From positions 21,982 through 85,981 of the forward strand of contig CAVGUA010000109.1 in NCBI GenBank assembly GCA_963632335.1: DNA of 64,000 nt, written 5' to 3'. Each line of letters opens with the position of its first letter. Position 1 is the stretch's first letter. The notes below the pieces were generated by a model that saw only the letters and a list, made by a program, of their open reading frames with translations, did no database searches and was not told the origin of the DNA. The position numbers and the translations under genes are program-made. This DNA is from Parabacteroides goldsteinii (GTDB lineage Bacteria > Bacillota_I > Bacilli_A > RFN20 > CAG-826). This document shows, piece by piece, positions 6,001 to 58,090 of the stretch.

Positions 6001-6480
6001 AAAGAAACATTCTCCTAATGCAAACTTCACGTCGTTTAGTATCACTGTTTGTTCTTCTGACATACCAACCAGAATGTCAGCCAAGAAATTTTTGTCAAAG
6101 TTTGTATTTAACGTTTTTGAATCAGAAATGTCATCAAGCACCTCCAATTTTTCTTTAGGTGCATTGGCTTCTTTATTTTGTTGTATAGCCTAATCACAAA
6201 GTTTTTTTATTTGTTCAGTAGTTGGGAAATGCTCTTGATAAAAAGCACTCCAATCGTCACCTGCCTTAATTACATTGTTTAAATCCTGCTCATACGATGA
6301 ATAAAACGTACCTGGATCAACAATTGCATCTGGTCTTGTTAATTCATTTTGTATTAAATTTTTATACGCAGAATAAAACATTTTTTTTGCTTCGTCTTTC
6401 GACACCTCATTGTTTTCAATATATGTAAAAACTTCAGTTAAGCCGTCAAAATCAAGAGTATTCAGTTTTATGCAATTCAT
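1..6480 (-). CDS. Giant virion/ejected-type protein, first 2,160 codons (3' end lies beyond window start); function unassigned
   Basis: Nine track fragments (793, 1627, 2056, 3535, 3979, 4408, 5059, 5395, 6190) share one frame and each ends in TAG. I read every gap triplet by triplet and found no TAA/TGA from 1 to 6480. The ATG at 6478-6480 follows the terminator T-run; the alternative ATG at 6493-6495 sits inside the hairpin. Confidence 0.8.
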
Positions 6481-6490
6481 ATATAAAAAA

Positions 6491-6522
6491 ATCATTGCCA
6501 ACAGACGTCTGTTGGCAATGAT
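6491..6522 (-). terminator. Rho-independent terminator after the 3,657-aa gene
   Basis: Perfect palindrome atcattgccaacagac/gtctgttggcaatgat about 27 nt past the TAA at 6550. On the minus strand it is followed by a T-run (plus A-run 6485-6491). Confidence 0.7.
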
Positions 6523-6549
6523 AAATATAAACTTAAACCAAGTATTTTT

Positions 6550-19466: not shown

Positions 19467-22400
19467 TTAATTTTTTAAAAATCTCTAAAGATATACTAAA
19501 GCATTACTTCTTATTGAAAGTTTAGTTGCCTCTAATGCGCCTCCATTTTTATATGTTGGTTCAGTCGTCCACTTAGTATTTAAATATTTAGAGATACTTC
19601 CTGCTTGCGGTGCACCCCATGTACTAAATCCATTTGGGTTTGCTATATGTTGTAAATATGACTACAAATAATCATTTTGTTTGTTTTGATACGTTGCTGC
19701 TGCTAAAGTATACGCATTCGTAAGATCTTGCAGCTATTTTTCTTTTTTCTATTGTGCAGCCTTTATTTGAATTGTATCACCATTAGCCTTATTATATGCG
19801 TCTTGATATTCTTGTTGTATTGTTACCTTGCCTTTGGTTAAAGCAATCTAAGCTTTATTGACTGCATCTTTCAATTCTTTACCTTCCTTTGTTGTATCAA
19901 ACTGTCCAACAGCAGCCTTGAGTGCATTATCGCGATCTTCTGTGTGGTACGCATTAAGTCTTGTTATCAAGTTCTTTGCATACTAACTAATCTTATTTGT
20001 GCTTTCTTTTGTATAATTAGCATCAATCTAATTGTTATAGTTATTAATTTTTGAACGAAGCTCATTATTTTCGTCAGCAACTTTTGTCCTTTCTGCTGCG
20101 TTTTTATAAGCCGTTTGTAATGCAGCCTATTTTTGTTCTTCGTCATTGGCTGCAATTTTTAAATTAACATTATTCCTTGCTGATTCTATTTGCTAATCTG
20201 CCATAAGGTCAGCAACAAGACCTGTCGCGGCGTCCGCAGTATTGCGTTTGTAATTATATGCAGAATTTCGATAAGTCTATCCAGCGTTATTTAATGTCTA
20301 AATTAAAGCACTTGGTGTTGAAATTCTTGTTTGCATCTAAGCAGGAGCCTGCTTGGGTGTATATTCAATTTTGCTTAAATTCCTGATTTTGTTATCAGCA
20401 TTTAATTGCAAACCAAGCATTGCCGCATTCGCACCCTCAGTTGCTTGCCTTAAATAATCATACGATTTAACAGGAGGAGTAACAACATTTTGTGGTTTAG
20501 TTGCCGATGCCTTTTGTAGCATTTCCGCTAATATGTCTTGCTGATTGCTGTATTCGTCAGTCTTTAAAAGACCATTATTAACGGCACCAATATGCTATAA
20601 AACACTTTGCAGCTCATCGTTTTTCAACCCACCTTCTATTGTATCTGTTTGATTATTCCAAGAACCGATAAGCCTTTCAATGTCATCATATATCTTTTTT
20701 TGCCTTTTTGGTGTATCAAAATCATAAGTTCCATCAGTATTTTGGGTGGCAAAATCATTCCAATCATAAACATTCTTATCGTTACTTAAAGCGTCAATAA
20801 TATTCTATCTAGCATAATAAAAATCAGTTGAAGAGGCTGCGTTTTTTGCTGCGTTTATCTAATCAGTTGTAATTAGCCCAGATTCAATAGCTTTATTTAA
20901 ATAATTATTCTGTGGAACAAATTCTGAACCTTTTTGCCAATTGTCTTTTTCGTTATTGACATTTAAATCAGATTCATTTAAATAAGATGGCCCGTCAGGA
21001 TTTGAAGAATAATAGCGTCCTTTTATCCTTAATGATTTTTCATTAAAAGTAACACCAGCTTTAGTTAAATCGTCTCCTTTAAGAACTCTATCATCTTTTA
21101 TATAATTGCCATCAGAATCTTTTGTGTATATATTATAAGTATCACCGTCCTTGTATAAATGCTAATCCTCATTCAATCCTAATTCCAATCTTTGCTTGTC
21201 AGTTAATATTAATTCATCCCTATCTTGTTTGTTTAAAGTTTCTAACATTCCATTGACATATCGATAATACTGATTTGCATTGACTTGGTCGTTTTGTAAA
21301 TCGAGTGCCTTGTCATATCTGCTCCGATCGTATGTATACACTCGTTCAAGTTGATTCCCTTTTCTTTGATACCTATTACCATTTACATTCATTTCACTCC
21401 CTTCATCTCCGACGTCAACCCAATTGTACTCATATATTCCATCTTTATTTTTTTGACCAACAAGATATTTTAATTTCCCGTCATTCTAATCAAAACTCAA
21501 TTTATAAGTTTGTTGATTAGGATCATATCCAACAATTGCCTTTTTTAAATCGTCTAAATTCCAAGTAATATAATTTCCATTATTGTCAATTTTTCCAAAT
21601 TCAATGTCTGAATTTGCCCTTTGATAATTTTCAGTATATTTTCCTAAGTTATTTTTAAAGGAATGGATTATATCATAAGCTGTTTCATAATTATTAGCCT
21701 GATCGCCAAAAATTGACTAAAATTGTTTATTTCTGAATACACCAACTTTTTTAGGGTTTATAATTGTGCCATCATCAGCAGTCCAATTGCCATCAGAATT
21801 TATTCTTATTGTATTTCCTGCTTTATCAGTTATAGTAAATGTTTCAGTATCCTTGTCAAAATTTAGTTTTAACTATGACGGAAGCCCTGCTCGATAATCG
21901 TATATATTGCCATTATGATAATTGTATAAAATAGAATTTGAAAAATTCTACCATAGCGGATTAGTGCTTAAAAAATTGTTTGAATTATTTTCGTTCCCTT
22001 CCTGAATTTGCATTCCAGTTTGTCCATACCCAATCATTCGGGAAGAATATGATCGGGCTTGACTAAAAGGGGTGAGTTTGCCTCCATATTTATTAGTTGT
22101 AGTTGTACCTGTATTTGCATTTGTAGTTTGTTTTTTGTTGTTGAAATTTTCATACAACACTTTTGCCTAATCATAGCTCATGCCCGTTTGAAGTCTAAAA
22201 AACATTCTTTCAACAAAACTACTTTCTAAATTTGGTTTTTGTTTTTCAAATTCTTTTGCAGCAGAAGCATTAAACGCATATCCTTTTAAATTTTTGTCAT
22301 ATTCTAAATTATTAAACCCAATATTGAATTTATTTTTTAAATTATACCACTTTCCATTTGGGTCTTTATATGACATTCCATCTATTTGAAAATTGTTGAC

Positions 22401-24923
22401 ATCAATAGTATTATCATTTGTTTTTGTTTTTACGATGTTTGCTGCTTTTTGATTCGCTGCTGCAGTACCATTTTTTGTACCAATATCATTGATTTCTGCA
22501 ATTTCTCCCTCTGATAGCTTAACTGTTTTTGAATTACCATTAGAAGTCACGTTAACCTCCATTTCTACATTTGAATCACCTAATCTTTTATTGGCCTCAC
22601 TTCCTCGTTTTGCTCTTCCTACAGCAGCAGAGCTTATTCCAAGGGTCAAAGTAAGGGCATTTATAAGTTCAAATGCTTCTTCTTTTTTAATCTCGTCTAG
22701 TTTGCCATCACAAAGTTTTTTCCAACAACTTAATGATTTGTCTGCGTTATTAATAGTACCTCTAACAGCTTCTGCTGTTAATAAACCACCAATTAAATGT
22801 CCAACTTTTGGTAGGTACTTAGCAATTTTTCCATATTTTCCTGCTACACCTATAACTGGAATTACACCAATTAAATCTAATCCTACATTAAGTGCTGTAT
22901 TACGAAATGCATCGCCAAAAGTTAATTGATCATCTGAAAAATCAGCACCAGCATTAATAAGATCAGAAGTAACACTTGATATCGCATTAATAACCGTACC
23001 TGGCCCAACAAACATATTACTCAAAAGAGATACAACATCAGCACCGAGTGCAACAAGCCTTGCCGTATCTCTACCGTTTAAACTAGACAACAAATAATCT
23101 GCGTCATCAAACGCTGGTTCTTGTCCTGTTAAAAACTACTTCTACCCAGAAAGATTTGTTTTTGATTTGTCATACTTTTCCTATATATCACTTTTAGGCT
23201 TTTTATTGCTTTTATTTTCCAAAATCTCACTTTCTGTTAAATACACCGTTCCTCCTGCTTGCATTTTATTTATACTAGATGCAACTTCAGCCGCTGCTTT
23301 TTTTCTATCTAATTCTTCAAAATCCCATTGATATTGTTTGTCTAGTTCATACTCTGGTTCGTCATAATATGCTCTATAAAAATCATTAGATTTTGTTGGA
23401 TCGTACTATGTTAACGTGTCCATATATTTCTTCTTTAAAAGGTTTAATTTTTGTTGACTTTTATACGGGTTTTCATTAATTTTTTCTATCAAATCTTTTA
23501 TTGATGTTTTTAATATTTTTAATTTACCTGTGCCTGTATCAACAGAAAGCGCATAACACCTACCTGTTTCTGGATTAATCATTCCTTGGGCAACAAATAT
23601 TTTTTTCCCTTTACCTTCATAAATAGGCTCGATCCCATCAGAATCTGATGTACCTCCGTCTGCTTTTGATAGAAACTACCTGTAAAAATCAATTAAAAAC
23701 CAATTCATTCTAATGCGCAATTTGCTACTAGTTACGAGCGGATCGTTAATATCATATGAATTTACTTGTGCCTTATACCAGCTAAAATCTGATTTTCCAG
23801 CAGGTTTTTGCCCTGTAAAAAAATAGGTTAATTGATTATTGCCGCCTTTACTATACAACAAATAACTTGGATCCATAGTATATACAGCATCCATTATCTA
23901 TGCTCCTTGTGTCAAAAATCTTTTTGACATATCTGTCAAATATGGGTTATCATCTCTAAATGATAATAAGTCAAAATCATAATCGTCTAAAATTGTTAGA
24001 TCATTTTGTGCTGCCTTATCAAAATTCTCTTCTAACATTTTTTCATATTTATATTGATCTGCTGTTTTCTATTCATTTTTTTCTGTGTCTAAAATTTCTT
24101 TTATATTTCCATCTCCATCGATAGCAACTTGATATTTACCATCTTTTACAACTTGTTCTTTTGGAGATTCTTCAGTTTTGTTAACAGGGTCGTATTCTAC
24201 TACTTTTTCTTGCGCAATTAGTGGAAAGAAAAATGGTTTATAATCATCAATAGTTCTTTTTTCTCGTGGTTTTGTTAAGAGCTTATCAATGTCCAAAATG
24301 GTTTCATCCTTAATTTCGTCAGAAATATTAAAATCATCATGAGAAAGTTTATAGCGGAAATCTTTTAAACAACGATCCCATTCTGAATAAACAGGGCTAT
24401 AATCCAATTTTATAGTATATGTATTTTTACCTGTTATCGGGTCAACATCGTTATTTTTAGTTTTTGTTGTTTTTATATAATCTTCAATATGGGTATTACC
24501 CTTTTCGTCGCTAGGTAAATCATTCATGAATTTATTAGCAGCATAATACCTATCAAATTCTATTTTTTTAGCGTCGCCCTTTTCTGATACTATAGGTTCA
24601 TCTTGTTTTTTATTCTTTAACAAAGTATCAACTGCGTCATTTATATAATAAACAGCATATTGTGTTGGACTAACACCATTATCATAAACTGGTAATTCAC
24701 TTTTGCCAATGATACTTCCAGCGTCATTAAATGCGTATGCACCAGAGGCAAGTCCATTCATAATGTCAGAAACCTCAGAAGCCACTTCCGCTTTTTGTTT
24801 GTCCTTTAATGGCATTATGCTTGTATATTCATTGAGGTTGTTCATGACTAACCTTGTCAAATCTGTTACATCGACTTGGTCGTTGCCATAAGTATATGTA
24901 CGCCTCTCCTTTTGTTCAGCCAT
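19467..24923 (-). CDS. 1,818-aa protein with central hydrophobic Gly/Ala/Val-rich region; tape-measure/ejection-like
   Basis: Fragments 20337, 21162, 21948, 22167, 23676 and 24069 share one frame and end in TAG. All gaps were read and hold no TAA/TGA. TAA at 19467-19469, ATG at 24921-24923 with an upstream in-frame TAA. The membrane-like stretch is ...LDLIGVIPVIGVAGKYGKIAKYLPKVGHLIGGLL... Confidence 0.8.
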
Positions 24924-26580: not shown

Positions 26581-29500
26581 TTAGACATCAAAAGTTGTTT
26601 GTATCGCTTTTAATAACACTAATTTATCCCCTGTCCAACGTAGTTTAACATCCATGTAATTATCTAATAATGGTACATTTTTCTTGCCATTATAATATGT
26701 ACCCCAAGAGGACAAGTCAAGTTGTGAAGTGTCCTTATAAAACGCATAAACATCGCTAGGGACAAATCGTTGAAGACTAGTATTATCGCCTCTTTCATTT
26801 GCGTTAATTACCTTTTCACCGATTCCATTTGTTAACAAAGATTCATTAATTTTTTTGTCGCTTAAAAATATTTTACCATCATTATTACCAACAGTAATTT
26901 TTAATGGATTAAAATCCTCTGGTACAGGTGCATTGCCAATACTGATTGGAGGGACAATGTGACTTGAATCTTTATTATACCAAGAATCAATATCCTCATT
27001 TTTCTGATAAATATTCAAGGGCTAAATCTGTATTGCCCAATAACCATTAGTAAACTATGCGTTACCTCTTGTCCTGCCAACTTCTTCAATGTCTCGTATT
27101 AACTAGTGATTGCATAATTTAAACGAATCTTCTTGCTTGTTAAACACAACTTCACCACCTGAATAATCTTGATAATTAATGTTGTTATTATGATTAACAG
27201 CTTTTTTATAAAAATCTTCAATTTCATTAAACGTGTCTTGTTTAGAATAAACCAATGGTAACATTGTAGCTTTGTAATAATTTGACTATGCAACTTTATT
27301 CCTTAAATAATTATTATCATCTGCTTTTTCAAGGAAATCACTAGCCAAAATTGGCTTTACGTTAGTCATAAAATCACTATCCTAAAATGGCGTATGATCG
27401 TATAAAATATCAGATCCATTTTGTTGATAGAAAGCCTTGGTTGCTTCTTGTCTTAAATACATGTTCCTCTTGTCTTTTGAGAAATCATATAAATCGCCAT
27501 TTATCGTCATATGTACTGATTCTGGTTTGACATTATTTGAGAATACCATTAAATTCTAAAAACGTTTTAAAGTGCCATCTTCTGCGCCAACAATAAAGTT
27601 TATTTCAAAAGGATGCTGTTTACCATACCATAAACACGGTTTTATTTTTTCAACATCATCAATTAATCCTGCTTGACCGTGCTTCCAAAAATCAGTTCTT
27701 AACTTTGGATAAACAGCAGAGAATCTTTCTGTATAAGACTTCTAATTCGTTAAATTATAGATATTTGAAACGCCATTTGCTAATGAGACAAATGCTAATA
27801 CAGTTGGCGTGTTTCCAGTGAGAATGCAAGAACCAGAAGCAAATTCAACTTCCTTTAAAGATGTGACCTCTGAAAATGTTAAACATAATTGAGTTTCAAA
27901 ATATCCAGCATTATAACTAACATATTTTTCTGAACGTTTTACGTCATAACTACCAATTGACGTTGCGTTAACATCAACCGCATTCATTTCGCATTTAATA
28001 CATAACTATATTACTGGCTTCTGAGGCTCTTCCTTTAGCATCTTATATCTAAGTTTAACAACATTGTCTTTTTCGATATATAAATAAGATGCTCCATAAT
28101 CAAAAAATCCTTCTTTATGCCCAACGCCATCTGTCTAATCGGATTCTTCAATATTTGAATTTGTAAAGAAATATTTAAAGTTTCCGAAATTATCTCTCTC
28201 TACAGAAAATTTATATTTTACCCAAACGTCTTTGCCTGTTGGAAAATATTTGTTTTGCAGATATAATGGCGTTCTGTAGCAATTTATAGATTTGTCACCT
28301 TCTTTTATTATGCATTCTTCCCATTTGTCAATTAAAACGGATTTAACACAAGTTCCACGGGCGTCCGTGTCAAATTCATCAAACTCATCAAAATAAGAGA
28401 ATGACTATGCTGTAGTGTTTGAAATTTTTGGCTATGTAACTGTATCCGCAATACTCATTCCTAAATTAGCAATCCACTTTGAAGCATTTCTATCATAACT
28501 AAAATAAATATTATGAATATTTTCAGACCAACTAGGAATCCAAGAATAGAATGTGGTAAATTTCCCCAACTATTCATTATAACATAAATTCCACGTCTTT
28601 TCCTCAAAACCTATTGTATTATCATAATAAGTAAACATTACATCGCCTTTATAAGCATTGTAATGCGTCTTAACATTTCTTACGCCAATAATAGTTTCTG
28701 TTTCACGCTCTTCAAGCGTAATGTTTTCATTTAAGAATTTTTGAACTTTAAAGTCAGAAATAAGTTTAAATCCAGATGAAGAAACTTGCCATATCTTTTT
28801 ACCAACTGTATCAACTCCATAAACGGCATTATTTGTTACACAAACGCTTTCTGGCCATTGTGTCCCAAAGTCGGTAGAATACATCTATATTTCAGACAGT
28901 ACACTTGCAACCCCAAGTTTTAACTATAAATCTTTCTCGTTACTACTATTAAATAGAGCTTGCTAGTTTACGGCTATTCTTCCAATACCGTGCTCAAATA
29001 CAGCTATTAACTAATTACCAAATTCTACAAGTCTCATCAAACCACCATATTGTAATGGATAATCCTTATAAGCTGTAGACTAAAATTCTCTAAAACCATT
29101 CCTAAAAGCATCAGTTGATGCTTGTACTGAATAGGCAATTCTAGTCTAAAAATTATTTTTTAAATACGGAACATTTGTATTTGTAAAATATGTTTTTTGT
29201 CCCGTTGAAGAACTGAAGCCTTGATTGTAGCATTGAGATTCTGGTACTTTATGATTGCCAGCAACTGAAATTTCTTGGAATGGATAAAAACCACGAGGAA
29301 TCCCACAAGCTGCATATTCAGTAGAATAAGTTGAATCAATATCACGATAACAAAGATTCATTGAACTTCTAATCGGGAACGTTATCCAGAGACCTAATTT
29401 TACCGCATTTATATCTCCTCTATTAACATCTGCATGATCAGACGTTCCTTTCCAATTGTTTTTCCAAGTGTTTTTATCAACTATAATATCATTATATTGC

Positions 29501-32500
29501 GCATCAGGGTCGTTGAAGTTTCTATTAAGTCTATGAGTGAAATTACTGATATAGCAGTCGCCTCTAAATACAGCTATTACACTATCATTCATTGTTCTTG
29601 TGTTTCCTCTAGAATCAGTATAACTTAATGAACTACACCTATTTGTATAATCATGATATTCAACTCGGTCGGTAACAGCATAATATGGAGATTGATCGTT
29701 GAAGCGTATTTTAAATTTAGTAAAATCACTAGTTGATTCATTGCCTGGAACATAAATATTTACAATTTCAGACGGTAATAAATTCTTATTCCCAGACATC
29801 CCCAAGTAAGCACCAAATGAACCACGAATAATAGCAGAATTTAACGGAGTATAACCTTTTGGTGTGCTATCTCCAAATATTGCTTTTGCTCCAGACGCAA
29901 CACCTTGCATTATACCTGCTGTGGCAGCACCAGTTGCAACTGCAACCCCAAGTGTTAATGCTGTTGCAGCAACTGTTGAACCAACAGCTGTAGCAACGCC
30001 ACCTATTGTTGTTATTGCTCCAATTGCAGAAACTGCACCACCAATGCTTATTGGTGCAGCTGCACCCCAAGTACAAACTGTTACTGCTACTGCAGCTGCA
30101 ACTGTGACAGCAATTGAGACAATTTTGAGCCATTTTTTAAATTTTGACTTTTTCTTTTTGAAAGATACATAATTATCTTTTGTCGGTATTTTATATCTTT
30201 CTTTAGGTACACAAGAAACAAAAGAAATATCTTCTGCTTCTCCGCATCTTGCACGGAAGTTATGTCCATTATTTCGTATAAGTGGAGTGTTGTCTGGGAT
30301 TGAAATTATATGTAATTGCTCTAAAATATCTTTTGTTGGTTTTTTCCAGCAATTATTCCATGAGCAAAACATGAATCTATCATTGTTTTCATCGCAAATC
30401 ATTCTTAATTGGTCTGTAACATTTTTTACAGGGAATTTTCCTCCGCTAAAAATTGAATTATAATATGACTAGTTTAATTCAAATTCGGGACAAAATGCAG
30501 TTAATGTTTCAGTACTTGGCTCATCTAGTAGTTTTTCAGTAAATTCTGTTGAAGTATATGATTTTTTTGTTTTAGTAGGCCATGATATTAATTGTGGATT
30601 AACATCCGCGTCATCTAAATCTTCATCGTCATTTACTGGCAAACTAGCATCAGTCTTCAAAAATGTTTCAGTGCAATAAAGAGCAGGTTGAGATGTATAG
30701 TCATTTGCGTGGTTTATTCTAATAATAGGAGTTCCAGAAACATCATCAAAACCTTCCGTAAAAGCCTGTGCTAATATTGTTGGTATTCTTTTTTGACGCA
30801 CAATAAAATGTCCTTTTATATGATGCTTTTCTCTTAACTCCTTAATAACATCATCTCCAACCTTTATTGCTAAACCATATATCACTGGATTGCCAAATTC
30901 AAATTGTTCAACTGATTGTTCTCTGTATTCTCCACTTGCTTTATTGACATTTGTACTGCTGGATTCATAATCCCATTGTTCCTCTGTAGACTTCCTTTTT
31001 ACAGCAATCTAATCAGAAGGAAAACGAACAACGCCAGCTGAATTTTCTAGTGTCAATTTGTTTATCCAATTAGTATCATAATCAATAGTAAACGTATCGC
31101 GTTCTGTATATGGATTATTATTAGAACATATCGCTATTTTCCCTGTTTTGTCAGCAATTTTAACTGTATCTGGCTGCTTGTCCCATTCTGTTGAATAAAA
31201 AGGAGAAGGTGTGTTTGTGGTGACCATCACGTCTTCAATATTGGTTAACTCTCCAATACCTCTTATATTAAAAACAGGTGTTAAGCTACCATCGTCCATT
31301 ATATAAACAACACCAAACCGATACATCTCTTCTGGCCAATAACCAACATAATTGTATACGCTTGATGCATTATAATACCCTCCTATACCATAAGCATCTT
31401 CACCATCGTATTGTGGATAGCCAACTAAAGCATCACATGAAAGAACTTGATAAAATGGCAAGAACTCAAGACTGAGTTTTTGTAATTCGTCATAATCAAT
31501 TTTAGGCTTTGTGGCATTGCCAAGGAATAACATGTTTTGACACTGAGCTTGTGTTTTTACCCTACTAAAAATTTGATGTTCTGAAAGTATCTCGTCTTTT
31601 GCGGCTACTTCAGTTGTTTCAGTTCCTGTGATTATAAATGAGCAGCTCTATGACAATATTCTATATTTGTCTAATATTTTATGATATGTGACATTTCCTT
31701 CAGCACCAGAAGCATTGCTGCTTCTTGAATAATATATAGAAAGATAATCATATGCTGTATCAATATTTGATACAGTTAAATTAATACCTTTGTATGAATT
31801 TTCGTCAAGCTGTCCTCCTCTAATTGTTTGTGGACTATTTATATTTCCAATATAAACAGGTATACATCCAGTTTCGGCGATAACATCAGTTTCATTTCCG
31901 TCAGCGTCAGCCAACTTGAAATAAAACGTATACATTCCAACTTTTAATTGACCACCATATGTTAATCCATTGAATGTTATAACAGGTATGTGTTTATATC
32001 GTTTATTTAAAGACGTGTCAAGATCAAACTCATCACTATCATACAAATTTGTATCTGTATTTCCCTTTCTATCAACACGTTCATAAGTATTTAATTCTAA
32101 AGGAGTAAATCTGGTATTTATTAATCTTGGAATATTTTTATTATCATTTAAGATAAGGTTTGTTGAACCATCATAAGACTATTGACATTCTATTTCAACA
32201 GGATGCCTTAAATCAAAATCTAAAACATCTGTTTCTCCATTGCCTCCTGTTATTAAATCTTCTATAATTCCATCCTCTTCAAAAACAAGGGGATAAATGT
32301 CACTTGTTACATGTTTTAGGCCTACAATATTTCCATCACTATCATATTTCCTATGAGCATTGTCAAGGCATTTGTAGTATTTACCATTACGAGTAAAATG
32401 ATAAGCTGACTCTTCCGAAACTTCAGTCACGATTTTGTTTGCAGAAGCATATAAGTCTAAAATACCAACACCATATTTATATTCATCAGATACACTTGTG

Positions 32501-33309
32501 TTTGTCAAAACAGTGCTATCAGAAAAATCATCAGTGGCATCACCTGCAGGAGTGCTGTATTTATAATTGCTTACAATAAATTTTGTATCAACGTTTTTAT
32601 ATTCTGTTTTTAAAACAGAAACTAGTTTTATGTCGAGACTGCCAACGTTACTTATCAAACCTGTTGCATTGATAAATACTATATTATCGGTATAATCAAT
32701 TGTTTTACCTGAACTGTCTTTTGTTGGCAGTTCATCTTTAGAACCAGATAACGACATTGCAAGTTGTCTACAGAGTTCCTACACTGAACCGCAATTAGAA
32801 AAACATGAAGAAACAGGAATGTTTTTTAAATCTATTTCTGTCTCACCATCACTCCAAGTTGTGTTATTGACGTAATATTTTACATTTGTTGTTTCTGAAT
32901 TACTATCAGCTTCTACACTACTGACTTTAGATGTTGTGACAAGAGGTCCAATAGTTTTCTATTGAGAATCAAAACTAATGCTTGTTATACCTGAAAAACC
33001 AAGATTCTCTAAAAGGGTTTTAAATGAACGAGAAAGCTAAACAGAATAAGTTACTTTACTGATTGTTGTTACTTGTTTGGTTATTGAACTAGAAGCCGCT
33101 TCAATTAAACCTGCCTCTAGCACATTGTTAATAGCACCGTTATTCCAAATGACAACATTAGTCAATATATTCCTATCTGCAGACAAATAGTTGCCTTCGG
33201 AATCCTTTAAATACTAATTACCTTTTCTAAAATTATATAATGGATTGTACTCCCAGGCCATTGACCCTTTATTTTTTATACATTGTGTTGCGTATTTTAT
33301 TCGCGTCAT
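26581..33309 (-). CDS. 2,242-aa tail-associated protein with an internal 87-aa Ala/Gly/Val/Thr hydrophobic segment
   Basis: Fragments 26581 (TAA), 27742, 28570, 29146, 30469, 31009, 31648 and 32179 share one frame; all but the first end in TAG. Every gap was checked. The ATG at 33307-33309 is 2 nt after the upstream TAA. Confidence 0.8.
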
Positions 33310-38236: not shown

Positions 38237-38332
38237 AAATCATTTTATATATTATTTAAAAATACATTTAATACATTCTATTTTCTAAAAAAATGGAATT
38301 AACGATACTTTTATATATATAGTTAATGCTCA
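38237..38332. promoter_or_regulatory. Divergent intergenic region (candidate promoters for both strands)
   Basis: The only divergent gene junction in the window: 96 nt, very AT-rich. I recognised no consensus promoter. Confidence 0.3.
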
Positions 38333-38620
38333 ATGAAAATGAATAAATTACAACAATTTAAAGACATAATTAATGGTCATGTAAAAGAAGTTTTAAACGA
38401 TGAAGAAGCATTATTAAAAAGACGTTTAAAAAAATGTAAATCATGCCCGTTGTTTACAGATAAATTAGGCGGCATGTGTGACCGTGATAAATATTATGAT
38501 TTTTAGAATAACAAGCAGTGCAAACCTGAAGATTCTGAAAATTGTATACATGGCTGTGGGTGCAGACTATAGGCAAAAGGAAGGCTGCCTTATGCAAATT
38601 GTGTTGCTAATAAATGGTGA
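38333..38620 (+). CDS. 95-aa Cys-rich (CxxC ... HGCGC ... C) zinc-ribbon-like protein
   Basis: ATG at 38333, in-frame TAG at 38504 and 38570, TGA at 38618-38620. Nine Cys residues, including KKCKSCP and CIHGCGCRL. Confidence 0.6.
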
Positions 38621-38623
38621 TAT

Positions 38624-39454
38624 ATGGAGAAAGCAAAAATTTTTGTTACTGATTTAGTTAAGCAGTATTCAGGTGTTTTTGACGTTCAATTTTGGAGTAC
38701 GTATAAAGCTTTAGAAAGATTACTTCCTGCTGATGTTTGGAAAGAAGAAAGGAAGAAATTTATGGACACAAGAGTTGTTAATAAAAAAATATTAACTAAA
38801 TATGAAATCACATAGGAACAATTGGATTCGACTTGCGCAGACATTAAAACTGAGTGGCAAAAAAAGAGTGATGAAGCCGCAGAAAGAGGAATTAAAATCC
38901 ACGCATAGATTGAACAATAGTTTAAAGATCCGAGTAGTTCTATAGATCTTAAAGCATTCGGTATTGGTGGGATTATAGATGTCCCAATATGTAATATATC
39001 TACTCCTGATCTTCCCTCTGGCGTTTATTCTGAGTACCCCATTCTTGTTGATTGCGGAGATATTATACTTAGTGGTAGAATCGACTTGCTTGTCAGAGAT
39101 GGCAACGACATATATATTGTTGATCATAAAACCAATAATTAGATAAAAAATAAGGGTGTGTATAATGGGAAAAAACATGATATACAAAAAATGAAATTCC
39201 CATTAAACGATTTGGAAGACACTACGTTTAATCATTATTCAATGTAGCTGTCGATTTATGCCTGGATGTTGCAATAGCTTTTTAAAGATATTCAAATAAA
39301 AGAATTAATAATCAATCATTTTGGTGAAGGTAATAAACATGAGTTTATTCATTGTGACTACATGAAAGAGCATGTTGAAAAACTAATGAATCAATATTAG
39401 AAAAAAATAAAGCATAAAACACAGCTTGATAAGTTAAAGCCGTTTGAATATTAA
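38624..39454 (+). CDS. PD-(D/E)xK (RecB/Cas4-like) nuclease, 276 aa
   Basis: ATG at 38624, seven in-frame TAG, TAA at 39452-39454. Motifs: GIKIHA, GRIDLLV, IYIVDHKT and Q(TAG)LSIYAW (QxxxY). Confidence 0.75.
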
Positions 39455-47708: not shown

Positions 47709-49916
47709 TTAATGTCGCATTTGTACAATTCTATCATTATTTGGATTGCCGTCATTTAACTATTCTATTTCAGCTTCTGTTCTCTTATCATCATTTTTAT
47801 TCTCATTATTAACAGAAGACCTTTCAGTTTGTGCATTGAACCACCTAATCTTAACATCGTCAGCAGCCTTTTGCTCTTCAAGTTTCATCTTACGTTCGTC
47901 GTATTGCTATATCTACTGAGTTAATTGCTAGTTCTGCTTCTATAACTATTGTAATTGTTGCTGGAATTGCATAAGCTACTCTTGTGCCTACTTGAGCTAA
48001 TCATTTTCTTTTTTAAATTTATCGGTTGCTTTCCGAACACTTGATTTAGCCTAAGACAAACTTTTTGAAGTCATGACTTCAAATATAGTGTCCATTCCCA
48101 TCACTCCTGACTACATTAGCTATGGAACAATGGCTTTAATAGTTTCCAAGTCTCTAGCAATGTCCGAATTTGCAGTTACATGGACATCAAAATCAGTTGT
48201 CGTAAAATTATCTGGCAAAGCAGTGAATATTTTCTAGTATTGTTCTCCTAAAATAATTGTTCCAGTCAGTCCCTTTTTGTATACTATTTTTGCGAGATTT
48301 AATGAATCACTAAGTATTTCCTCTGTTACTAAATCCATTTGTTGGAACCAATGCTTTGTAATAATAAACGAATTATTTGCACTGACTTTTACATTTGTAA
48401 CTGCATCTCTTTGTTCAATTCCATTTAATCGCTCCCTAAAGACACCACTTATAGAACAAACTGTATTTTCAATTGATTCAATTGCAAGTTGTATTGCCTA
48501 AATTGACCCTAGTTTAGCAGTATCATCATAACCACTAAATGTCGTGTTCAACGATTGTCCAGTTGCATAACGTCCTTCCTGTGAAGTATCTATTAAAGCC
48601 AACCCTTGCTTTTTCATTGCAATCCACTTCTGTAGTCTTTCAACAGTATCTGTTCCAAGAATTGCAGGCAACATTGACACATCTAACCAATCGCCACTAG
48701 AACCTGAATTTGCAATTAACGTATCACGATAAAAATGCAACAAGTCATATTTATCTTGCAGGTGCATACATGCTATTACAAAACTAAATGGTTCATTGTT
48801 TCGATTATCAAAATAAACACCATTAATACTTAATGACGCATAAGTTGGATTAGTTATACTCCTCTATACAGTCTCATCTTTTCCTGTTAAAACAAAAATG
48901 TCTTCACCAATTCGAATGGTTTTATAACGCTACATAACATAATCGCTATCAGTCTCAAGCCATTCGACTTCATAAACAGGCACAAGACGATAATTATAGT
49001 TACTTACTTTATTGTATGGGTATCCTGGCGTTGTTACTTCATGGTCTGCCATTAAACCAGGAGTTTCCTAACACTTGTCATGAAACAATCTAACATACTT
49101 TCCTGGAGCATCATACTTTTCTTCACCAAGCATGTCTTTTATGCTTTGCTTATCCTCTTTCGACAAAACCGCTCCGTATTTATTTAATATCTATGATTTT
49201 GTCATCCAACGACGGACAACTGCTCTATAAGAATCTTTTATATAAGGAGAATCTGGATTTTTGTCAATAAAAGTATTTAACGGATTTAATACTTCTATCT
49301 AAATATTGCCACCATCAGACGTTGGTTTTACTTGGTAAAATGTATAACCTGTGATTAAAAGATCTAACAACAAAGTTTTTAACTTTGTCTATAAATCCAT
49401 TTGTCTTGATTGAATAATATACTATATTACATCTTGCGCAGCAATTTCAAATTTTGAAACAAAATTTTCAGAAACATCCGCAATTAAAGCTTCTATTTCT
49501 TTACCTACATATGGGTCGGTAAGATTGTTTTTATCACCTGTTTGTAAAAAGTCTAAAATTTTGTTTTTTGCTTTTTTCTATAATGTTGTATAAACCTCCT
49601 TAGTAATAGTCAACTCTTTTTCACGCATTATTTTTGAAATAGTATCTTGATCCTTGCAAGATACTTTTGGTATTATTGGAGAACCAAGATATTCTCCAAT
49701 CAAAGCGTCAACATGTTTGCGTATTAACGGAGTAAAGCTAACGCTGATAGGACTACCAACTCCAAAATTTTCTTCAAGAAATCTGAATTGTTCCTCATCA
49801 CGTTTGCCATTATAATAATTGTACGCCTTCTGCAAATCGTCCTTATCATAAACCAATTCGGAAATAGCCCTATTGGTTTCTTCAATCATGTCCTATTCTG
49901 TTTTTGTATATTCCAT
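47709..49916 (-). CDS. Portal protein (SPP1 Gp6-like N-terminal YYxG signature), about 735 aa
   Basis: Fragments 49578 and 48498 plus the gaps form one frame with over 20 in-frame TAG, ending at TAA 47709-47711. The N-terminus reads ...LQKAYNYYNGKRD.... The C-terminal coiled coil is Gln-rich. The alternative start is 49889. Confidence 0.7.
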
Positions 49917-55504: not shown

Positions 55505-55982
55505 TTAGGATTCACGGATAATGAATGACCTATAAGGGTTGAATACTGCAATACCAGCGTAGCCCCAGTTGATAAGCTTAGAACCTGCAACAGGGCTAGA
55601 AACAACACCGCTGCTGAGACCGTTTTCGCCACCAACGCCAAGATACTTATTCGTAATAAACTCGCCACCCTTTAAGGTGAAGCAAGCAATTGCTGGCTGG
55701 TTCTTGGATTCGTCAGCCGTAAGGTCAATCGCTACCATGTAACCCTTTTCAGAACCGTATTCACGAGTGAGCGCACGGTCAACAGTGAATGAAACCTGAT
55801 TGCCTGCATACTCATATGCGTTATACGTTGCGCCAACCTTAATGTCGCCGCCAGCAGCCTTAGAGTAAAGATAGCAGCCGTCGGTCTTGAAGTTAGCAAG
55901 ATAATCGCCAAGAGTGGTCTGAATATCATTCCAGGCTTTCTGATTGCAAATGAAATGATCAATTTTGTTAATCTTAAATTCT
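55505..55982 (-). CDS. Putative major capsid protein, exon 2 (5' boundary approximate)
   Basis: The frame is open from an in-frame TGA at 55982-55984 down to TAA at 55505-55507. There is no start codon for about 80 codons, so it cannot be translated alone. GC-rich and TAG-free. Confidence 0.6.
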
Positions 55983-57125
55983 CATTTAAGTTCAGACTAT
56001 ATCTTCATCTTATTTTAACGGTTTAATATTTTTTTTGTCTCCTATAAAAAATCTCCATCTAAATCCTCCGCAGCGTTTTTGTAATCCTTTTATTGCTGCT
56101 GTAATATTTGACGGTGTTTTTATTTTATTTCCCCTTGCCGCTTCAGCAATACTTGTGTAAGATTCAATAAAAAAGCCTTCATCATTATATTTAGCCACGG
56201 CTATTCCAGTATGTTCAAAATCAAAATGTCTTTTAAAAGACCAGTAGTAGCCATAAGCCTATTTTGATTTTTTGTTACATACATTACTAATTGCGTCCCT
56301 TGCGGCTGATTGATTTTTAAATTCTTTAGAAGCCTCAGTTATAGATTTCCAAATTTTCAAAAGATTGCCAAGCAAATCAAATTGATAAACAACCTTTTCT
56401 TTTTTTATTACTGGTTCAATATTATCAGTTTTGCCTAAATAATATTTCCACTAAAAATCACCGCAATATTTACTTCTACAGCAAACCGCATTGTAAATGC
56501 CTGTCAACCCCAACTCTTGTTGTGCTTTTTTTATTGATGGCCAAGTTCTTATAAATACTCCATCCAAAGTATATTGAGCAATTTCAATTTCATTAACCCA
56601 ATTCATTGTTATTTTGCCGCCAATAGTTAAGTTATAATTATTGCTTGATTTAACAAATTCTGGCGTTACTAATTCGGCTTCGTATTTATATGCCTCAAGC
56701 ATACCTTCTGTTGTATCAGGAAATATTTTTAAGGTTTGTCGCTTAAAATTAGAATATCCATATTTTAATACCGCAGCAGGAAAACCTCGTGTGTTTTTTT
56801 TTGAATCTTTATGAGTAACTCCACAACCTATATATCCATCAAATATATCAGGATTTGTGTAATGTACTCCAATATAAATTTTACCGTTAATTATATTTGT
56901 TGTTTTATAAACAATATAATTCATAAGATGTTAAACATTTAGTCGTTGAACGTCCCTCCCTTTCGGAGGTCTTCGCTGCTGATTGCCCAATCTTTATGAT
57001 TTTCTAGCATTCACATTCATTATTACTAATCATTGTTGTAGCTCATAAAGCTCTAAGGGGTTTCCAGCAATTTGAATAATTTATTCATACAGCATTCTCA
57101 TGCTGCCCAAGCTATCATATCATTT
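55983..57125 (-). mobile_element. Group-I-like self-splicing intron carrying a homing endonuclease (boundaries +/- ~10 nt)
   Basis: It interrupts the capsid reading frame. About 200 nt of non-coding sequence 5' of the endonuclease gene contains the hairpins CAGCAU-GAGA-AUGCUG and CCUCC-GAAAG-GGAGG. The sequence GCUUG can pair with the exon end CAAGU (candidate P1). The model UU|...G|A restores the frame: 965+478 nt = 481 codons. Confidence 0.55.
56010..56924 (-). CDS. GIY-YIG homing endonuclease with three NUMOD/IENR1-like DNA-binding repeats, 304 aa
   Basis: Fragments 56451 (TAG) and 56010 (TAA) share one frame; the gap was checked. In-frame TAG at 56451 and 56259. Motifs: YIVYKTTNIINGKIYIGVH, FKRQ, YEAELV, NYNLTIGG. 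The repeats are WPSIKKAQQELG, WKSITEASKEF and YTSIAEAARG. Confidence 0.8.
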
Positions 57126-58090
57126 AACTTGTTGCCACGATCATTTGCGGCTTTCTCATTAAGAGTTGCAATTACTGTATTGAACAACTCGATGGTTGGC
57201 TTGCCATTGTATGCGTACTTCGATGCGAAACGCTCTACCTGAGGCAAGAAGCCGTCACCAATATTGATTGGACGACCAGTGTCAGGATCAACAATAGTTG
57301 AACGACCAGTCTTAGGATTAATGTTGGTCTTGTTGAAGAGAAGACCCTGATTACGAGAATCCATGAAGTTGTCAAGAAGGGTCTTCTGTACGTTGTCCAT
57401 CTTATAAATGGTCTCCTTGCCGTCCTGTCCACCGCCAATCTTAATGAATACATCTTCATGTGCCTTATAAAGAGCGGAATAAGAAATGTCATTACGGAAG
57501 GTGGTGATGTAGTTCCTGTGATGCTCAACAGAAGACTGAGCCTTTACATAACCCTCTTCGTGAAGTTCAGGATGAGCATTAGACTAGAAACGAGTAGTCA
57601 TACCCATCTTGCAAGCGTCAAGGTCAAGCTCAACGTCATAAGAATTGTCAACAAGACGAACCTAAACTTCCCAGAAGTTATCAGCCTTACGAATTGGTCG
57701 ACTTACAACCATGCACTGCTGGCGAGATTCATCAATCTTGAAAATATCGTACTTCTCGTAGTAACGCTCCTTGAAGTACATCGTTATTTCGCTTCCATTT
57801 GCACCAGTGTCGGTTACATCAGCCGCAAACTCTACACGCTTAATAAAGTTTGTCTCAATATCCCATTCAAACATCATGCTATCAATAGACTAGAAGCGAT
57901 TTGCCTTCTTAGTGTCCATGTGATATACATTCATAAGGGATTCAGTAAGGAAAGAAGCACTCAAGTTAGGAAACATACGACTCACAACACCAAGCTTGTG
58001 AGGGCGAGTGCCAAGAAACTTGTAAAAGTCCTCATAGGTATAAGTTTCACTCTATGTGGGCCTTACAGTAACGTAATTTGCTACAATCAT
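57126..58090 (-). CDS. Putative major capsid protein, exon 1 (3' boundary approximate)
   Basis: ATG at 58088-58090, four in-frame TAG. The frame runs on into the intron to TGA at 57098. GC-rich with biased codons. It is preceded by an acidic scaffold-like gene. Confidence 0.6.

What the first reader, a model, noticed from the sequence alone, without database searches (positions are those of the whole stretch)
55505..58090. Putative major capsid gene split by a group-I-like intron whose GIY-YIG endonuclease itself needs TAG read-through
Seen:
- The GC-rich capsid-like frame (ATG at 58090) runs into a TGA at 57098.
- About 1.1 kb further on, the frame reopens at about 55982 with no start codon for about 80 codons.
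- Between the two lies a 304-aa GIY-YIG/NUMOD endonuclease (56010-56924) with in-frame TAG at 56451 and 56259.
- There is also about 200 nt of hairpin-rich non-coding sequence with GAGA and GAAAG loops.
- A GCUUG element can pair with the exon end CAAGU.
- Joining after ..AAGUU (57126) to A-GAA-UUU (55982) gives exactly 481 codons (...RGNKL-EFKINKIDHF...).
Established: group I introns with GIY-YIG endonucleases invade essential phage genes, and introns have been reported in crAss-like late genes.
Inference: the endonuclease has co-adapted to the phage genetic code, so it is translated only when suppression is active.
Basis: partly seen in the sequence, partly recalled or inferred. Interest (0 to 1): 0.75.

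Follow-up and report, generated by a model that had tools for sequence, protein, structure and literature searches.

The report
Group I intron in crAss-like capsid gene

Summary
On the minus strand a crAss-type major capsid gene (ATG 58090) is split by a 1167-nt group I intron (57126..55960). Rfam RF00028 scores 52.5 bits, above its threshold of 50. A 304-codon GIY-YIG/NUMOD endonuclease ORF (56924..56010) fills the P8 loop and has in-frame TAGs at 56453-56451 and 56261-56259.

Splicing is after U57127 (the invariant U·G pair of P1, CAAGU/GCUUG) and after G55960. This gives ...RGNK-Y-HFICNQ... and a 472-aa protein, not 481 codons. Three intron-less relatives, an ungapped alignment of 120 homologues, and covarying P1 and P10 in 13 same-site introns all support it.

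TAG means Gln across the window: 290 in-frame TAGs in 29 long ORFs. The endonuclease uses TAG at the genome's rate. Its TAGs sit where unrecoded relatives encode Gln, and the part downstream of the first TAG is under purifying selection (dN/dS 0.12). Relatives in other phages carry TGA at Trp positions, or no internal stops.

None of this is new in kind. Yutin 2021 described capsid-gene introns and recoded intron ORFs in crAss-like phages. Borges 2021 proposed that recoded stops delay endonuclease synthesis. Verdict: a new member of a known kind, of modest interest.

The parts
57127..58090 (-). Major capsid protein exon 1. It holds 321 codons plus the first base of the Tyr322 codon. In-frame TAG (Gln) codons lie at 58054-58052, 57892-57890, 57664-57662 and 57586-57584.
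   Evidence: Pfam Crass_capsid and PHROG 11589 major head protein. There are 978 homologues. The intron-less relative L087 has CAA/CAG Gln at all four TAG positions.
55960..57126 (-). Group I intron, 1167 nt, from the first base after U57127 to the terminal G (omega-G) at 55960.
   Evidence: Rfam RF00028 scores 52.5 bits at 57131..56922 and 27.1 bits at 56071..55973. The P1-P9 model on 13 same-site introns is 92.7% paired with 23 compensatory pairs. The boundaries are fixed by intron-less homologues.
57108..57131 (-). P1. Exon CAAGU (57131-57127) pairs with the internal guide sequence GCUUG (57112-57108), with the U57127·G57112 wobble at the 5' splice site. The P1 loop holds the P10 partner: AUGAU at 57118-57114, or AAAUGAU at 57125-57119.
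   Evidence: U·G is present in 13 of 13 relatives, and 5 of the 6 P1 pairs show compensatory changes, e.g. CACGU/GCGUG and CUCGU/GCGAG. P10 covaries.
57090..57105 (-). P2 hairpin CAGCAU-GAGA-AUGCUG. The exon-1 reading frame ends at UGA 57100-57098 at its loop, 9 codons into the intron.
   Evidence: All six P2 pairs show compensatory changes. The sequence was checked.
56930..57080 (-). Catalytic core, 5' part: P3 (57080-57073 with 56937-56930), P4-P5-P6/P6a (57069-56950) and the P7 5' strand GACUA (56944-56940).
   Evidence: Rfam alignment. P4, P6 and P7 are invariant; P3, P5 and P6a show compensatory changes.
56010..56924 (-). Homing endonuclease ORF of 304 codons. It has an N-terminal GIY-YIG-type domain and three NUMOD1-type DNA-binding repeats. 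In-frame TAG (Gln) lies at 56453-56451 (codon 158) and 56261-56259 (codon 222).
   Evidence: Pfam NUMOD1 and I-HmuI_NUMOD-like pass their cut-offs; GIY-YIG is sub-threshold. PHROG 314 homing endonuclease, E = 2.8e-24. The model of a 97%-identical relative matches the I-TevI catalytic domain and the I-HmuI DNA-binding region. Homologues have Gln at the TAG positions. dN/dS downstream of the first TAG is 0.12.
56008..56928 (-). P8. The stem UCUUAU (56928-56923) pairs with AUAAGA (56013-56008), and the endonuclease ORF forms the loop. The AUG (56924-56922) and the UAA stop (56012-56010) both overlap the stem.
   Evidence: Seen in the sequence. The helix is 87% paired in 13 relatives.
55960..55999 (-). 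Catalytic core, 3' part: P7 3' strand UAGUC (55999-55995), P9 hairpin CUUAAAU-GAGA-AUUUAAG (55990-55973), a conserved 12-nt tail AUUAACAAAAUU, and omega-G at 55960.
   Evidence: Rfam 3' piece. P7 is invariant and P9 has 3 compensatory pairs. A G precedes the protein-inferred exon 2 in all 13 relatives.
55505..55959 (-). Major capsid protein exon 2. It starts with the last two bases (AU) of the Tyr322 codon and ends with stop TAA at 55507-55505. The first 5-7 bases form P10.
   Evidence: The spliced sequence reads ...GNKYHFICNQKAW..., the same as P0002 at the junction, and 120 homologues align without a gap.

Best explanation
This is a mobile group I intron, of the type common in phage genes, sitting in the major capsid gene of a large crAss-like phage (probably the Zeta group) that reads TAG as glutamine.

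How the RNA works. The intron folds into P1-P10. P1 pairs the exon end CAAGU with the guide GCUUG and presents U57127·G as the 5' splice site. G55960 is the terminal guanosine. P10 aligns exon 2 (AUCAU) next to P1. Splicing joins U57127 to A55959 and recreates a Tyr codon inside the conserved motif TGNK-Y-xFICN, giving a 472-aa capsid protein.

The endonuclease. The P8 loop holds a 304-codon ORF with a GIY-YIG-type nuclease domain and three NUMOD DNA-binding repeats. By analogy with I-TevI it would cut intron-less capsid alleles of co-infecting relatives and copy the intron in by repair.

The TAG codons. Because the resident phage decodes TAG as Gln, the endonuclease gene has drifted to use TAG at two Gln positions, at the same rate as the rest of the genome. 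As a result, full-length endonuclease (nuclease plus all the DNA-binding repeats) can only be made where TAG is suppressed. Elsewhere translation stops after residue 157.

Shown: the intron's identity and structure, the splice sites, TAG=Gln, and purifying selection on the endonuclease. Inferred: self-splicing in vivo, homing activity, and the timing or host-range consequence of the TAGs.
For: Intron identity and structure:
- Rfam RF00028 scores above its gathering threshold, and a 3' core piece matches as well.
- On 13 same-site introns the P1-P9 model is 92.7% paired, against 35-42% when partners are slid. It has 23 compensatory pairs, and no shuffle out of 500 reaches any measure.
- The U·G at the 5' splice site is invariant.
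- P10 covaries: AUCAU/AUGAU, AUCAC/GUGAU, GGAUUU/AAAUCU, GGGUAA/UUACCC.

Splice junction:
- The intron-less alleles L001, L087 and L088 read straight across the junction.
- 120 homologues show no gap there, and residue 322 is Y, F or W.

Capsid identity: Pfam and PHROG hits.

Endonuclease identity:
- NUMOD1, I-HmuI_NUMOD-like and PHROG 314 hits.
- Fold matches to I-TevI (1mk0, probability 0.99, target-normalised TM-score 0.63) and to I-HmuI.

TAG = Gln:
- 290 in-frame TAGs in 29 long ORFs.
- L087 has Gln at all 4 capsid TAG positions.
- Endonuclease codons 158 and 222 are Gln in 117 and 96 of 120 homologues. Unrecoded relatives such as L007, L008 and L010 encode Gln there with no TAG in the ORF.

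The endonuclease is translated past the TAGs: dN/dS is 0.12 for codons 159-304 against L002, which shares both TAGs.

Mobility: presence/absence polymorphism among capsid alleles that are 81-96% identical.
Against: - No RNA data exist, so splicing is inferred.
- No suppressor tRNA is found in the 64-kb window, so the decoding agent is not seen here.
- The GIY-YIG Pfam score is below its cut-off (18.8 against 22.6). No PDB relative is found by sequence. The Foldseek E-values are weak (0.03-0.09), although the top specific hits are the expected ones.
- P3 has one U·U position and an A×C end pair in the window copy, and P5 is weakly paired (72%).
- Rfam's own alignment ends at G55973. The 3' splice site at 55960 therefore rests on protein homology and P10, not on the covariance model.
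Confidence: 0.9

Rival explanations
1. The TAG codons in the endonuclease were selected as a timing gate. They block endonuclease synthesis until the phage's suppressor tRNA accumulates late in infection. On this reading they are an adaptation, not a by-product of the recoded code.
For: Full-length product requires TAG read-through. The first TAG falls at codon 158, after the nuclease domain and within the first DNA-binding repeat, so a stop there would remove most of the DNA-binding region. L018, a 55%-identical relative, also has TAG at codon 158. Borges et al. proposed this mechanism for a TGA-recoded intron endonuclease.
Against: TAG frequency in the endonuclease (2 of 9 Gln-like codons) is no higher than the genome background of 34%. 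TAG positions differ among relatives L009, L013 and L014, and several relatives have none. The gene sits in a late gene, so it is probably transcribed late in any case. All of this fits neutral CAG/CAA-to-TAG drift.
Confidence: 0.15
2. The endonuclease ORF is a decaying pseudogene. Its TAGs are real stops, and the intron persists only as a splicing-competent relic.
For: Two in-frame TAGs under the standard code. No suppressor tRNA in the window.
Against: TAG is in-frame 290 times in the window's long ORFs, including portal and capsid. Both endonuclease TAGs align with conserved Gln. There are no TAA or TGA stops and no frameshifts over 304 codons. dN/dS downstream of the first TAG is 0.12. The catalytic-domain and NUMOD residues that are invariant across the family are intact.
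Confidence: 0.04
3. The reader's junction (57126 joined to 55982, 481 codons), or Rfam's implied 3' end (G55973), is the true splice site.
For: Both keep the reading frame. Rfam's alignment ends at G55973. With the alternative P1 register that Rfam uses, U57122 and G55973 would also join in frame (my reading).
Against: Both add residues (8 or 5) that none of 120 homologues has. Comparative P1 and P10 covariation in 13 introns fits only 57127|55959.
Confidence: 0.02
4. There is no splicing. The capsid protein is made as two separate polypeptides from two genes.
For: GenBank annotates a split capsid gene as two CDS in crAss-like phage cr118_1. That is an annotation artefact around an intron core, not evidence for two genes.
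Against: Exon 2 has no start codon for its first 74 codons (55959 down to the ATG at 55738). The break lies inside a conserved motif. Homologues are single proteins of about 473 aa. The intervening sequence is a structurally conserved group I intron.
Confidence: 0.01

Closest known systems
Group I introns in major capsid genes of Delta and Zeta crAss-like phages (Yutin et al. 2021, Nat Commun 12:1044, PMC7886860; e.g. cMAG OLRF01000054, whose capsid gene is in five fragments)
   Same: The same host gene family (crAss-type capsid), the same kind of element, the same phage assemblage of large gut phages with recoded stops, and intron-encoded endonuclease ORFs. The paper also reports intron ORFs carrying recoded stops (TGA in PolB introns of OLWB01000021). 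Relatives fetched here show capsid genes with 2-5 interruptions.
   Different: This copy combines a capsid-gene intron with TAG (not TGA) codons in the intron ORF; in the paper's capsid example there was no recoding. The paper identified introns by their protein domains. Here the RNA structure and the exact splice sites are resolved. Whether this exact insertion site was listed there was not checked.
Recoded group I intron endonuclease of Agate phages (Borges et al. 2021 preprint, doi 10.1101/2021.08.26.457843)
   Same: A homing endonuclease inside a group I intron of a stop-codon-recoded gut phage.
   Different: Agate uses TGA=Trp, and its intron is in an early gene with the endonuclease preferentially recoded. 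Here the code is TAG=Gln, the host gene is late, and the endonuclease is not enriched in TAG.
Phage T4 td intron with I-TevI (group IA2 intron with a GIY-YIG homing endonuclease). The features of T4 td are recalled from my own knowledge.
   Same: A group I intron in a conserved phage gene, with a free-standing GIY-YIG endonuclease ORF looped out of the ribozyme. An in-frame stop shortly after the 5' splice site keeps ribosomes out of the core. The J8/7-P7 sequence AAGAUAUAGUC is shared with the Rfam consensus. The predicted N-terminal domain matches the I-TevI catalytic domain 1mk0.
   Different: The ORF is in P8 here, whereas in td it is in P6a (from memory). The DNA-binding part is three NUMOD1-type repeats, not I-TevI's zinc finger, minor-groove helix and helix-turn-helix. 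The host gene is a capsid gene, not thymidylate synthase. The ORF needs TAG read-through.
Bacillus phage SPO1 DNA-polymerase intron with I-HmuI. The intron architecture is recalled from my own knowledge.
   Same: NUMOD-type DNA-binding module: Pfam I-HmuI_NUMOD-like and Foldseek top hit 1u3e. As I recall, that ORF is also located in P8.
   Different: I-HmuI has an HNH nuclease domain, not a GIY-YIG one, and uses the standard genetic code.

Membership tests
Group I intron (Rfam RF00028) | Covariance-model score at or above the curated gathering threshold | tested here: met
   52.5 bits against 50 at 57131..56922, E = 1.8e-10 for the whole window. A separate 27.1-bit match covers the 3' core.
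Group I intron (Rfam RF00028) | P1 helix between the 5' exon end and an internal guide sequence, with a U·G wobble at the 5' splice site | tested here: met
   CAAGU/GCUUG. U·G is present in 13 of 13 same-site introns, and 5 of 6 P1 pairs show compensatory changes.
Group I intron (Rfam RF00028) | Terminal guanosine (omega-G) just before the 3' splice site, and P10 pairing of the 3' exon with the guide region | tested here: met
   G55960. A G precedes the protein-inferred exon 2 in all 13 relatives. P10 is 3-7 bp, lies within 0-2 nt of the guide sequence in 11 of 13 (a 5-bp alternative 1 nt away exists in the window and L002), and covaries.
Group I intron (Rfam RF00028) | Conserved core: the P3-P8 and P4-P6 domains and the P7 pseudoknot | tested here: met
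   53 pairs in 10 helices are 92.7% paired, with 23 pairs changed on both sides. P4, P6 and P7 are invariant.
Group I intron (Rfam RF00028) | GTP-dependent self-splicing | not testable with these tools
   Needs in vitro transcription and splicing, or RNA-seq.
GIY-YIG homing endonuclease (I-TevI-like) | GIY-YIG catalytic domain recognised by profile | tested here: inconclusive
   Pfam PF01541 scores 18.8 bits, below its cut-off of 22.6 (E = 0.002). Only 9 of 26 family members match at E < 0.01. A PDB sequence-profile search finds no I-TevI hit.
GIY-YIG homing endonuclease (I-TevI-like) | Fold of the catalytic domain | tested here: met
   AlphaFold model of P0121 (97% identical), mean pLDDT 88.8. 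Foldseek against 1mk0 (I-TevI catalytic domain): probability 0.99, target-normalised TM-score 0.63, 104 columns, but E = 0.09.
GIY-YIG homing endonuclease (I-TevI-like) | Motif residues: the two Tyr of the motif, plus a conserved Arg, Glu and Asn | tested here: met
   Y6, Y17-x-G19, R62, E82 and N98 are invariant in 86 family members. Their equivalence to I-TevI Y6/Y17/R27/E75/N90 is from memory and was not checked residue by residue.
GIY-YIG homing endonuclease (I-TevI-like) | Site-specific cleavage of the intron-less allele | not testable with these tools
   Indirect only: the intron is present or absent among close capsid alleles.
crAss-type major capsid protein (Pfam PF23898) | Profile match above the cut-off and full-length homology | tested here: met
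   37.7 bits against 27. PHROG 11589 major head protein. 978 homologues, typically 473 aa, one of them named 'major capsid protein' by its source.
TAG-to-Gln recoded phage (genetic code 15) | In-frame TAG in conserved genes, aligned with Gln in standard-code relatives | tested here: met
   290 in-frame TAGs in 29 long ORFs. Gln stands at all 4 capsid TAG sites in L087 and at both endonuclease sites in relatives with no TAG in the ORF.
TAG-to-Gln recoded phage (genetic code 15) | Phage-encoded suppressor tRNA (anticodon CUA) | tested here: inconclusive
   ARAGORN finds no tRNA in the 64-kb window. The rest of the genome, probably more than 130 kb, is not available here.

The most novel reading that the evidence does not exclude
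One endonuclease-intron lineage occupies the same capsid-gene site in many crAss-like phages and has taken on whichever code its host phage uses: TAG=Gln here and in L002, L009, L013, L014 and L018; TGA=Trp in L015, L019 and L020; no internal stops in L007, L008 and L010. Code divergence could therefore act as a natural firewall. An endonuclease from a TAG-recoded phage would be truncated after residue 157 in a co-infecting standard-code or TGA-recoded relative. That would limit intron homing between lineages and tie endonuclease activity to the presence of the matching suppressor tRNA.
Probability: 0.25. Interest if true: 0.5.

Novelty: new member of a known kind. Interest (0 to 1): 0.3.

Why it matters
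The main value is practical. With standard gene calling this capsid gene appears as a 330-aa fragment, an orphan endonuclease fragment and an unannotated 3' half. The exact splice sites (57127|55959) and the TAG=Gln reading recover a normal 472-aa crAss-type capsid protein. The set of 13 same-site introns gives a clean, covariation-supported structural model for this intron class. It also shows one homing-endonuclease family adapted to two different stop-codon reassignments. That is a useful natural data set for asking whether genetic-code changes restrict the spread of mobile elements. Conceptually it adds nothing to Yutin et al. 2021 and Borges et al. 2021/2022.

Tried and rejected
1. They add residues absent from all homologues and have poor P10 pairing.
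2. A 5' splice site at U57127 combined with G55983, G55981 or G55973 as the terminal G gives stop codons or the wrong frame (my reading).
3. A megablast search of 24 kb of the window against the GenBank phage collection found nothing. A tblastn search with the capsid protein found only two unannotated relatives, plus crAss-like capsids at 21-25% identity. The phage could therefore not be placed in an ICTV taxon. The Zeta-group assignment is inferred only from the size of relatives' contigs (137-204 kb) and from Yutin's description.
4. A search for a suppressor tRNA in the window found none.
5. A PDB sequence-profile search with the endonuclease family gave no informative hit, so a structure prediction and fold search were used instead.
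The 97%-identical P0121 was modelled instead.
7. An Rfam E-value scan of the whole window for further introns found only this one.
8. L018 and L028, two divergent relatives, were left out of the structural alignment because I could not place their splice sites confidently.
Full report
**1. What is in the sequence**

On the minus strand an ORF starts at ATG 58090. It contains four in-frame TAG codons (58054-52, 57892-90, 57664-62, 57586-84) and ends at TGA 57100-57098. The same reading frame reopens after TGA 55985-55983 and runs to TAA 55507-55505. Its first ATG is only at 55738.

Between the two parts lies an ORF, 56924..56010, of 304 codons, with in-frame TAG at 56453-56451 and 56261-56259.

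**2. It is a group I intron**

Rfam RF00028 matches 57131..56922 at 52.5 bits (gathering score 50, E = 1.8e-10 for the whole window). A second piece at 56071..55973 (27.1 bits) covers P8', J8/7, P7' and P9. Nothing else in the window reaches E < 0.01. A blastn search with the region hits the same roughly 130-nt core in about 300 phage genomes, including Staphylococcus, Vibrio ICP1, Serratia and Lactococcus phages, and a crAss-like phage, cr118_1.

**3. The true splice sites**

- An intron-less relative (MT835470.1, locus L001) reads ...NEKSENPTGNKYVLICNEKAW... straight through.
- Joining U57127 to A55959 gives ...NEKAANDRGNK-Y-HFICNQKAW... and a protein of 472 aa.
- Among 978 homologues the usual length is 473 aa. 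The 120 best align across the junction without a single gap column. Residue 322 is Y in 86, F in 30 and W in 3. P0002 has the identical string GNKYHFICN.
- Two more intron-less alleles (L087 at 84% and L088 at 81% amino-acid identity) show the empty site.
It also places the 5' splice site one base beyond the U·G pair. Rfam's own alignment would end the intron at G55973, which is also inconsistent with the homologues.

**4. RNA structure**

I collected relatives of the endonuclease from IMG/VR and other assemblies. I built ORF-deleted versions of 13 introns that sit at exactly this site.

A hand-drawn P1-P9 model with P7 as a pseudoknot gives these counts:

| Measure | Value |
|---|---|
| Cells forming a standard pair | 92.7% |
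| Same measure with 3' partners slid by 1-3 columns | 35-42% |
| Pairs changed on both sides | 23 of 53 |
| Shuffles (of 500) reaching any observed measure | 0 |

- The U·G at the 5' splice site is present in 13 of 13. P1 changes in a compensatory way: CAAGU/GCUUG, CACGU/GCGUG, CUCGU/GCGAG, ACACU/GGUGU.
- P10, between the first bases of exon 2 and the P1 loop next to the guide sequence, also covaries: AUCAU/AUGAU here, then AUCAC/GUGAU, GGAUUU/AAAUCU, UUACAUU/AGUGUAG, GGGUAA/UUACCC.
- The exon-1 frame stops at UGA at the P2 loop, nine codons into the intron.
- The endonuclease ORF fills the P8 loop. Its AUG and its UAA both overlap the P8 stem UCUUAU/AUAAGA.

**5. The host gene**

The spliced protein matches Pfam Crass_capsid (PF23898, 37.7 bits against 27) and PHROG 11589 'major head protein'. 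A portal gene lies at 47709-49916.

Relatives sit on contigs of 137-204 kb. That fits the Zeta group of crAss-like phages, with genomes of 145-192 kb, described by Yutin et al. 2021. I could not confirm the group directly.

**6. The endonuclease**

- Pfam gives NUMOD1 (43.6 bits) and I-HmuI_NUMOD-like (29.5 bits) above their cut-offs, and GIY-YIG below its cut-off (18.8 against 22.6). PHROG 314 'homing endonuclease' gives E = 2.8e-24.
- A PDB sequence search was uninformative.
- An AlphaFold model of the 97%-identical P0121 has mean pLDDT 88.8. Its best PDB matches are the I-HmuI DNA-binding region (probability 1.00) and the I-TevI catalytic domain 1mk0 (probability 0.99, target-normalised TM-score 0.63), although the E-values are weak.
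- Y6, Y17, G19, R62, E82 and N98 are invariant in 86 family members.
- I therefore accept a GIY-YIG-type nuclease domain with three NUMOD-type repeats, with the sequence-profile criterion only partly met.

**7. TAG is glutamine, in the phage and in the endonuclease**

- With only TAA and TGA as stops, the window resolves into 29 long ORFs that contain 290 in-frame TAGs. These include ORFs of 3657 and 2242 codons.
- TAG makes up 34% of Gln-like codons (CAA + CAG + TAG) in the other ORFs, 4 of 15 in the capsid gene and 2 of 9 in the endonuclease. The endonuclease is therefore neither enriched nor depleted (P(≤2) = 0.36).
- Its G+C content (30.3%) equals the window average (31.5%), while the capsid exons are at 43.4%.
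- L087, whose capsid gene has no TAG, has Gln at all four capsid TAG positions.
- Endonuclease codons 158 and 222 are Gln in 117 and 96 of 120 homologues. At the DNA level, relatives with no TAG in the ORF (L007, L008, L010) encode Gln there.
- Between the window and L002, which share both TAGs, codons 159-304 show 14 synonymous and 8 non-synonymous differences (dN/dS 0.12). The part downstream of the first TAG is therefore translated. This rules out a decaying pseudogene.

**8. The same endonuclease family follows its host's code**

Among the relatives:

- Some have TAG at various Gln positions (L009, L013, L014, L018).
- Others have TGA at conserved Trp positions (L015, L019-L022, L024-L027, L035).
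- Others have no TAG and no TGA at aligned Trp positions (L007, L008, L010, L016, L017, L028).
- TAG positions are mostly not shared, which argues for drift rather than selected regulatory sites. L018 shares the TAG at codon 158.

**9. Mechanism**

The most likely reading is an ordinary mobile group I intron. The RNA splices itself out of the capsid mRNA. The endonuclease cuts intron-less capsid alleles of co-infecting relatives and drives homing.

The intron sits inside the strongly conserved motif TGNK-Y-xFICN, as is typical of homing sites. It is polymorphic among capsid alleles that are 81-96% identical.

Because the first TAG lies after the nuclease domain and within the first DNA-binding repeat, a ribosome that stops there would make a 157-aa product lacking most of the DNA-binding region. 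Full-length enzyme therefore depends on TAG suppression. That dependence follows from the sequence. That it serves as a timing device is an inference, and the background-level TAG usage does not favour selection for it.

No suppressor tRNA lies in the window.

**10. Comparison with what is known**

- Yutin et al. [quoted passage not shown] They report up to 14 introns per Zeta genome and a capsid gene in five fragments. [quoted passage not shown]
- Borges et al. (2021 preprint) describe a recoded group I intron endonuclease. [quoted passage not shown]
- GenBank already holds a crAss-like genome (cr118_1, Suoliviridae) whose capsid gene is annotated as two CDS around an intron core.
- A 2025 paper on Zeta phages notes that endonuclease content differs between genomes that are 91% identical.

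The finding is therefore a new, well-resolved member of a known kind.

**11. Verdict**

Novelty is low and interest is about 0.3. The most novel reading still open is that code divergence limits homing between phage lineages. I give it about 25% probability and moderate interest if true.

Noticed in passing
Loci L009-L036 (IMG/VR relatives), capsid gene: In related phages of 100-200 kb the capsid gene is often broken several times. A tblastn search with the spliced protein shows exon blocks ending near residues 27, 172-180, 250-260, 320-323, 375, 390 and 421-430, with up to five blocks in one locus (L016). The capsid gene is an intron hot spot in this clade.
   Followed up: partly
L012 about 2290-3440 and L016 about 2100-3460: A related intron and endonuclease (53-59% identical) sits 12 nt downstream of the window's site, after the first base of the Cys codon of ...FIC|N.... 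Its P1 is re-matched to the new exon sequence (CAUCU/GGAUG in L012, UAUCU/GGAUA in L016). This looks like a shift of the same element family to a neighbouring site.
   Followed up: partly
window 55505-58090 compared with the whole window: The capsid exons have 43.4% G+C, against 31.5% for the window and 30.3% for the endonuclease. The capsid gene uses CAG (11) and no CAA for Gln, while other ORFs prefer CAA (454 against 94 CAG). This is a strong gene-specific codon bias in the capsid gene.
   Followed up: partly
window 1-6549 and 6550-17523, minus strand: Two adjoining giant ORFs, one of at least 2183 codons that runs off the window end and one of 3657 codons, are readable only with TAG as sense (60 TAGs in the second). 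Further large ORFs lie at 19467-24923 (1818 codons) and 26581-33309 (2242 codons). They were not annotated here.
   Followed up: no
window 57098-57100; L015, L019 and L020 5' intron regions: The stop that ends exon-1 read-through into the intron is UGA at the P2 loop in TAG-recoded and standard-code relatives. In the TGA-recoded relatives the frame instead ends at a UAA slightly further on. The intron's 'ribosome stop' thus appears matched to the host code.
   Followed up: partly
window 1-64000: ARAGORN finds no tRNA gene in the whole 64-kb window even though TAG recoding is pervasive. Any suppressor tRNA must lie elsewhere in the genome.
   Followed up: partly
window 38327-39454, plus strand: This is the only sizeable plus-strand coding stretch in an otherwise minus-strand window: ORFs of 98 and 278 codons, the longer with 7 in-frame TAGs. 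It was not annotated.
   Followed up: no
window 55961-55972: A 12-nt tail (AUUAACAAAAUU) between P9 and the terminal G is conserved as AUUAAC/AAUAAC...AAUUG in most same-site relatives. Its pairing partner (P9.0 or a tertiary contact) was not identified.
   Followed up: no
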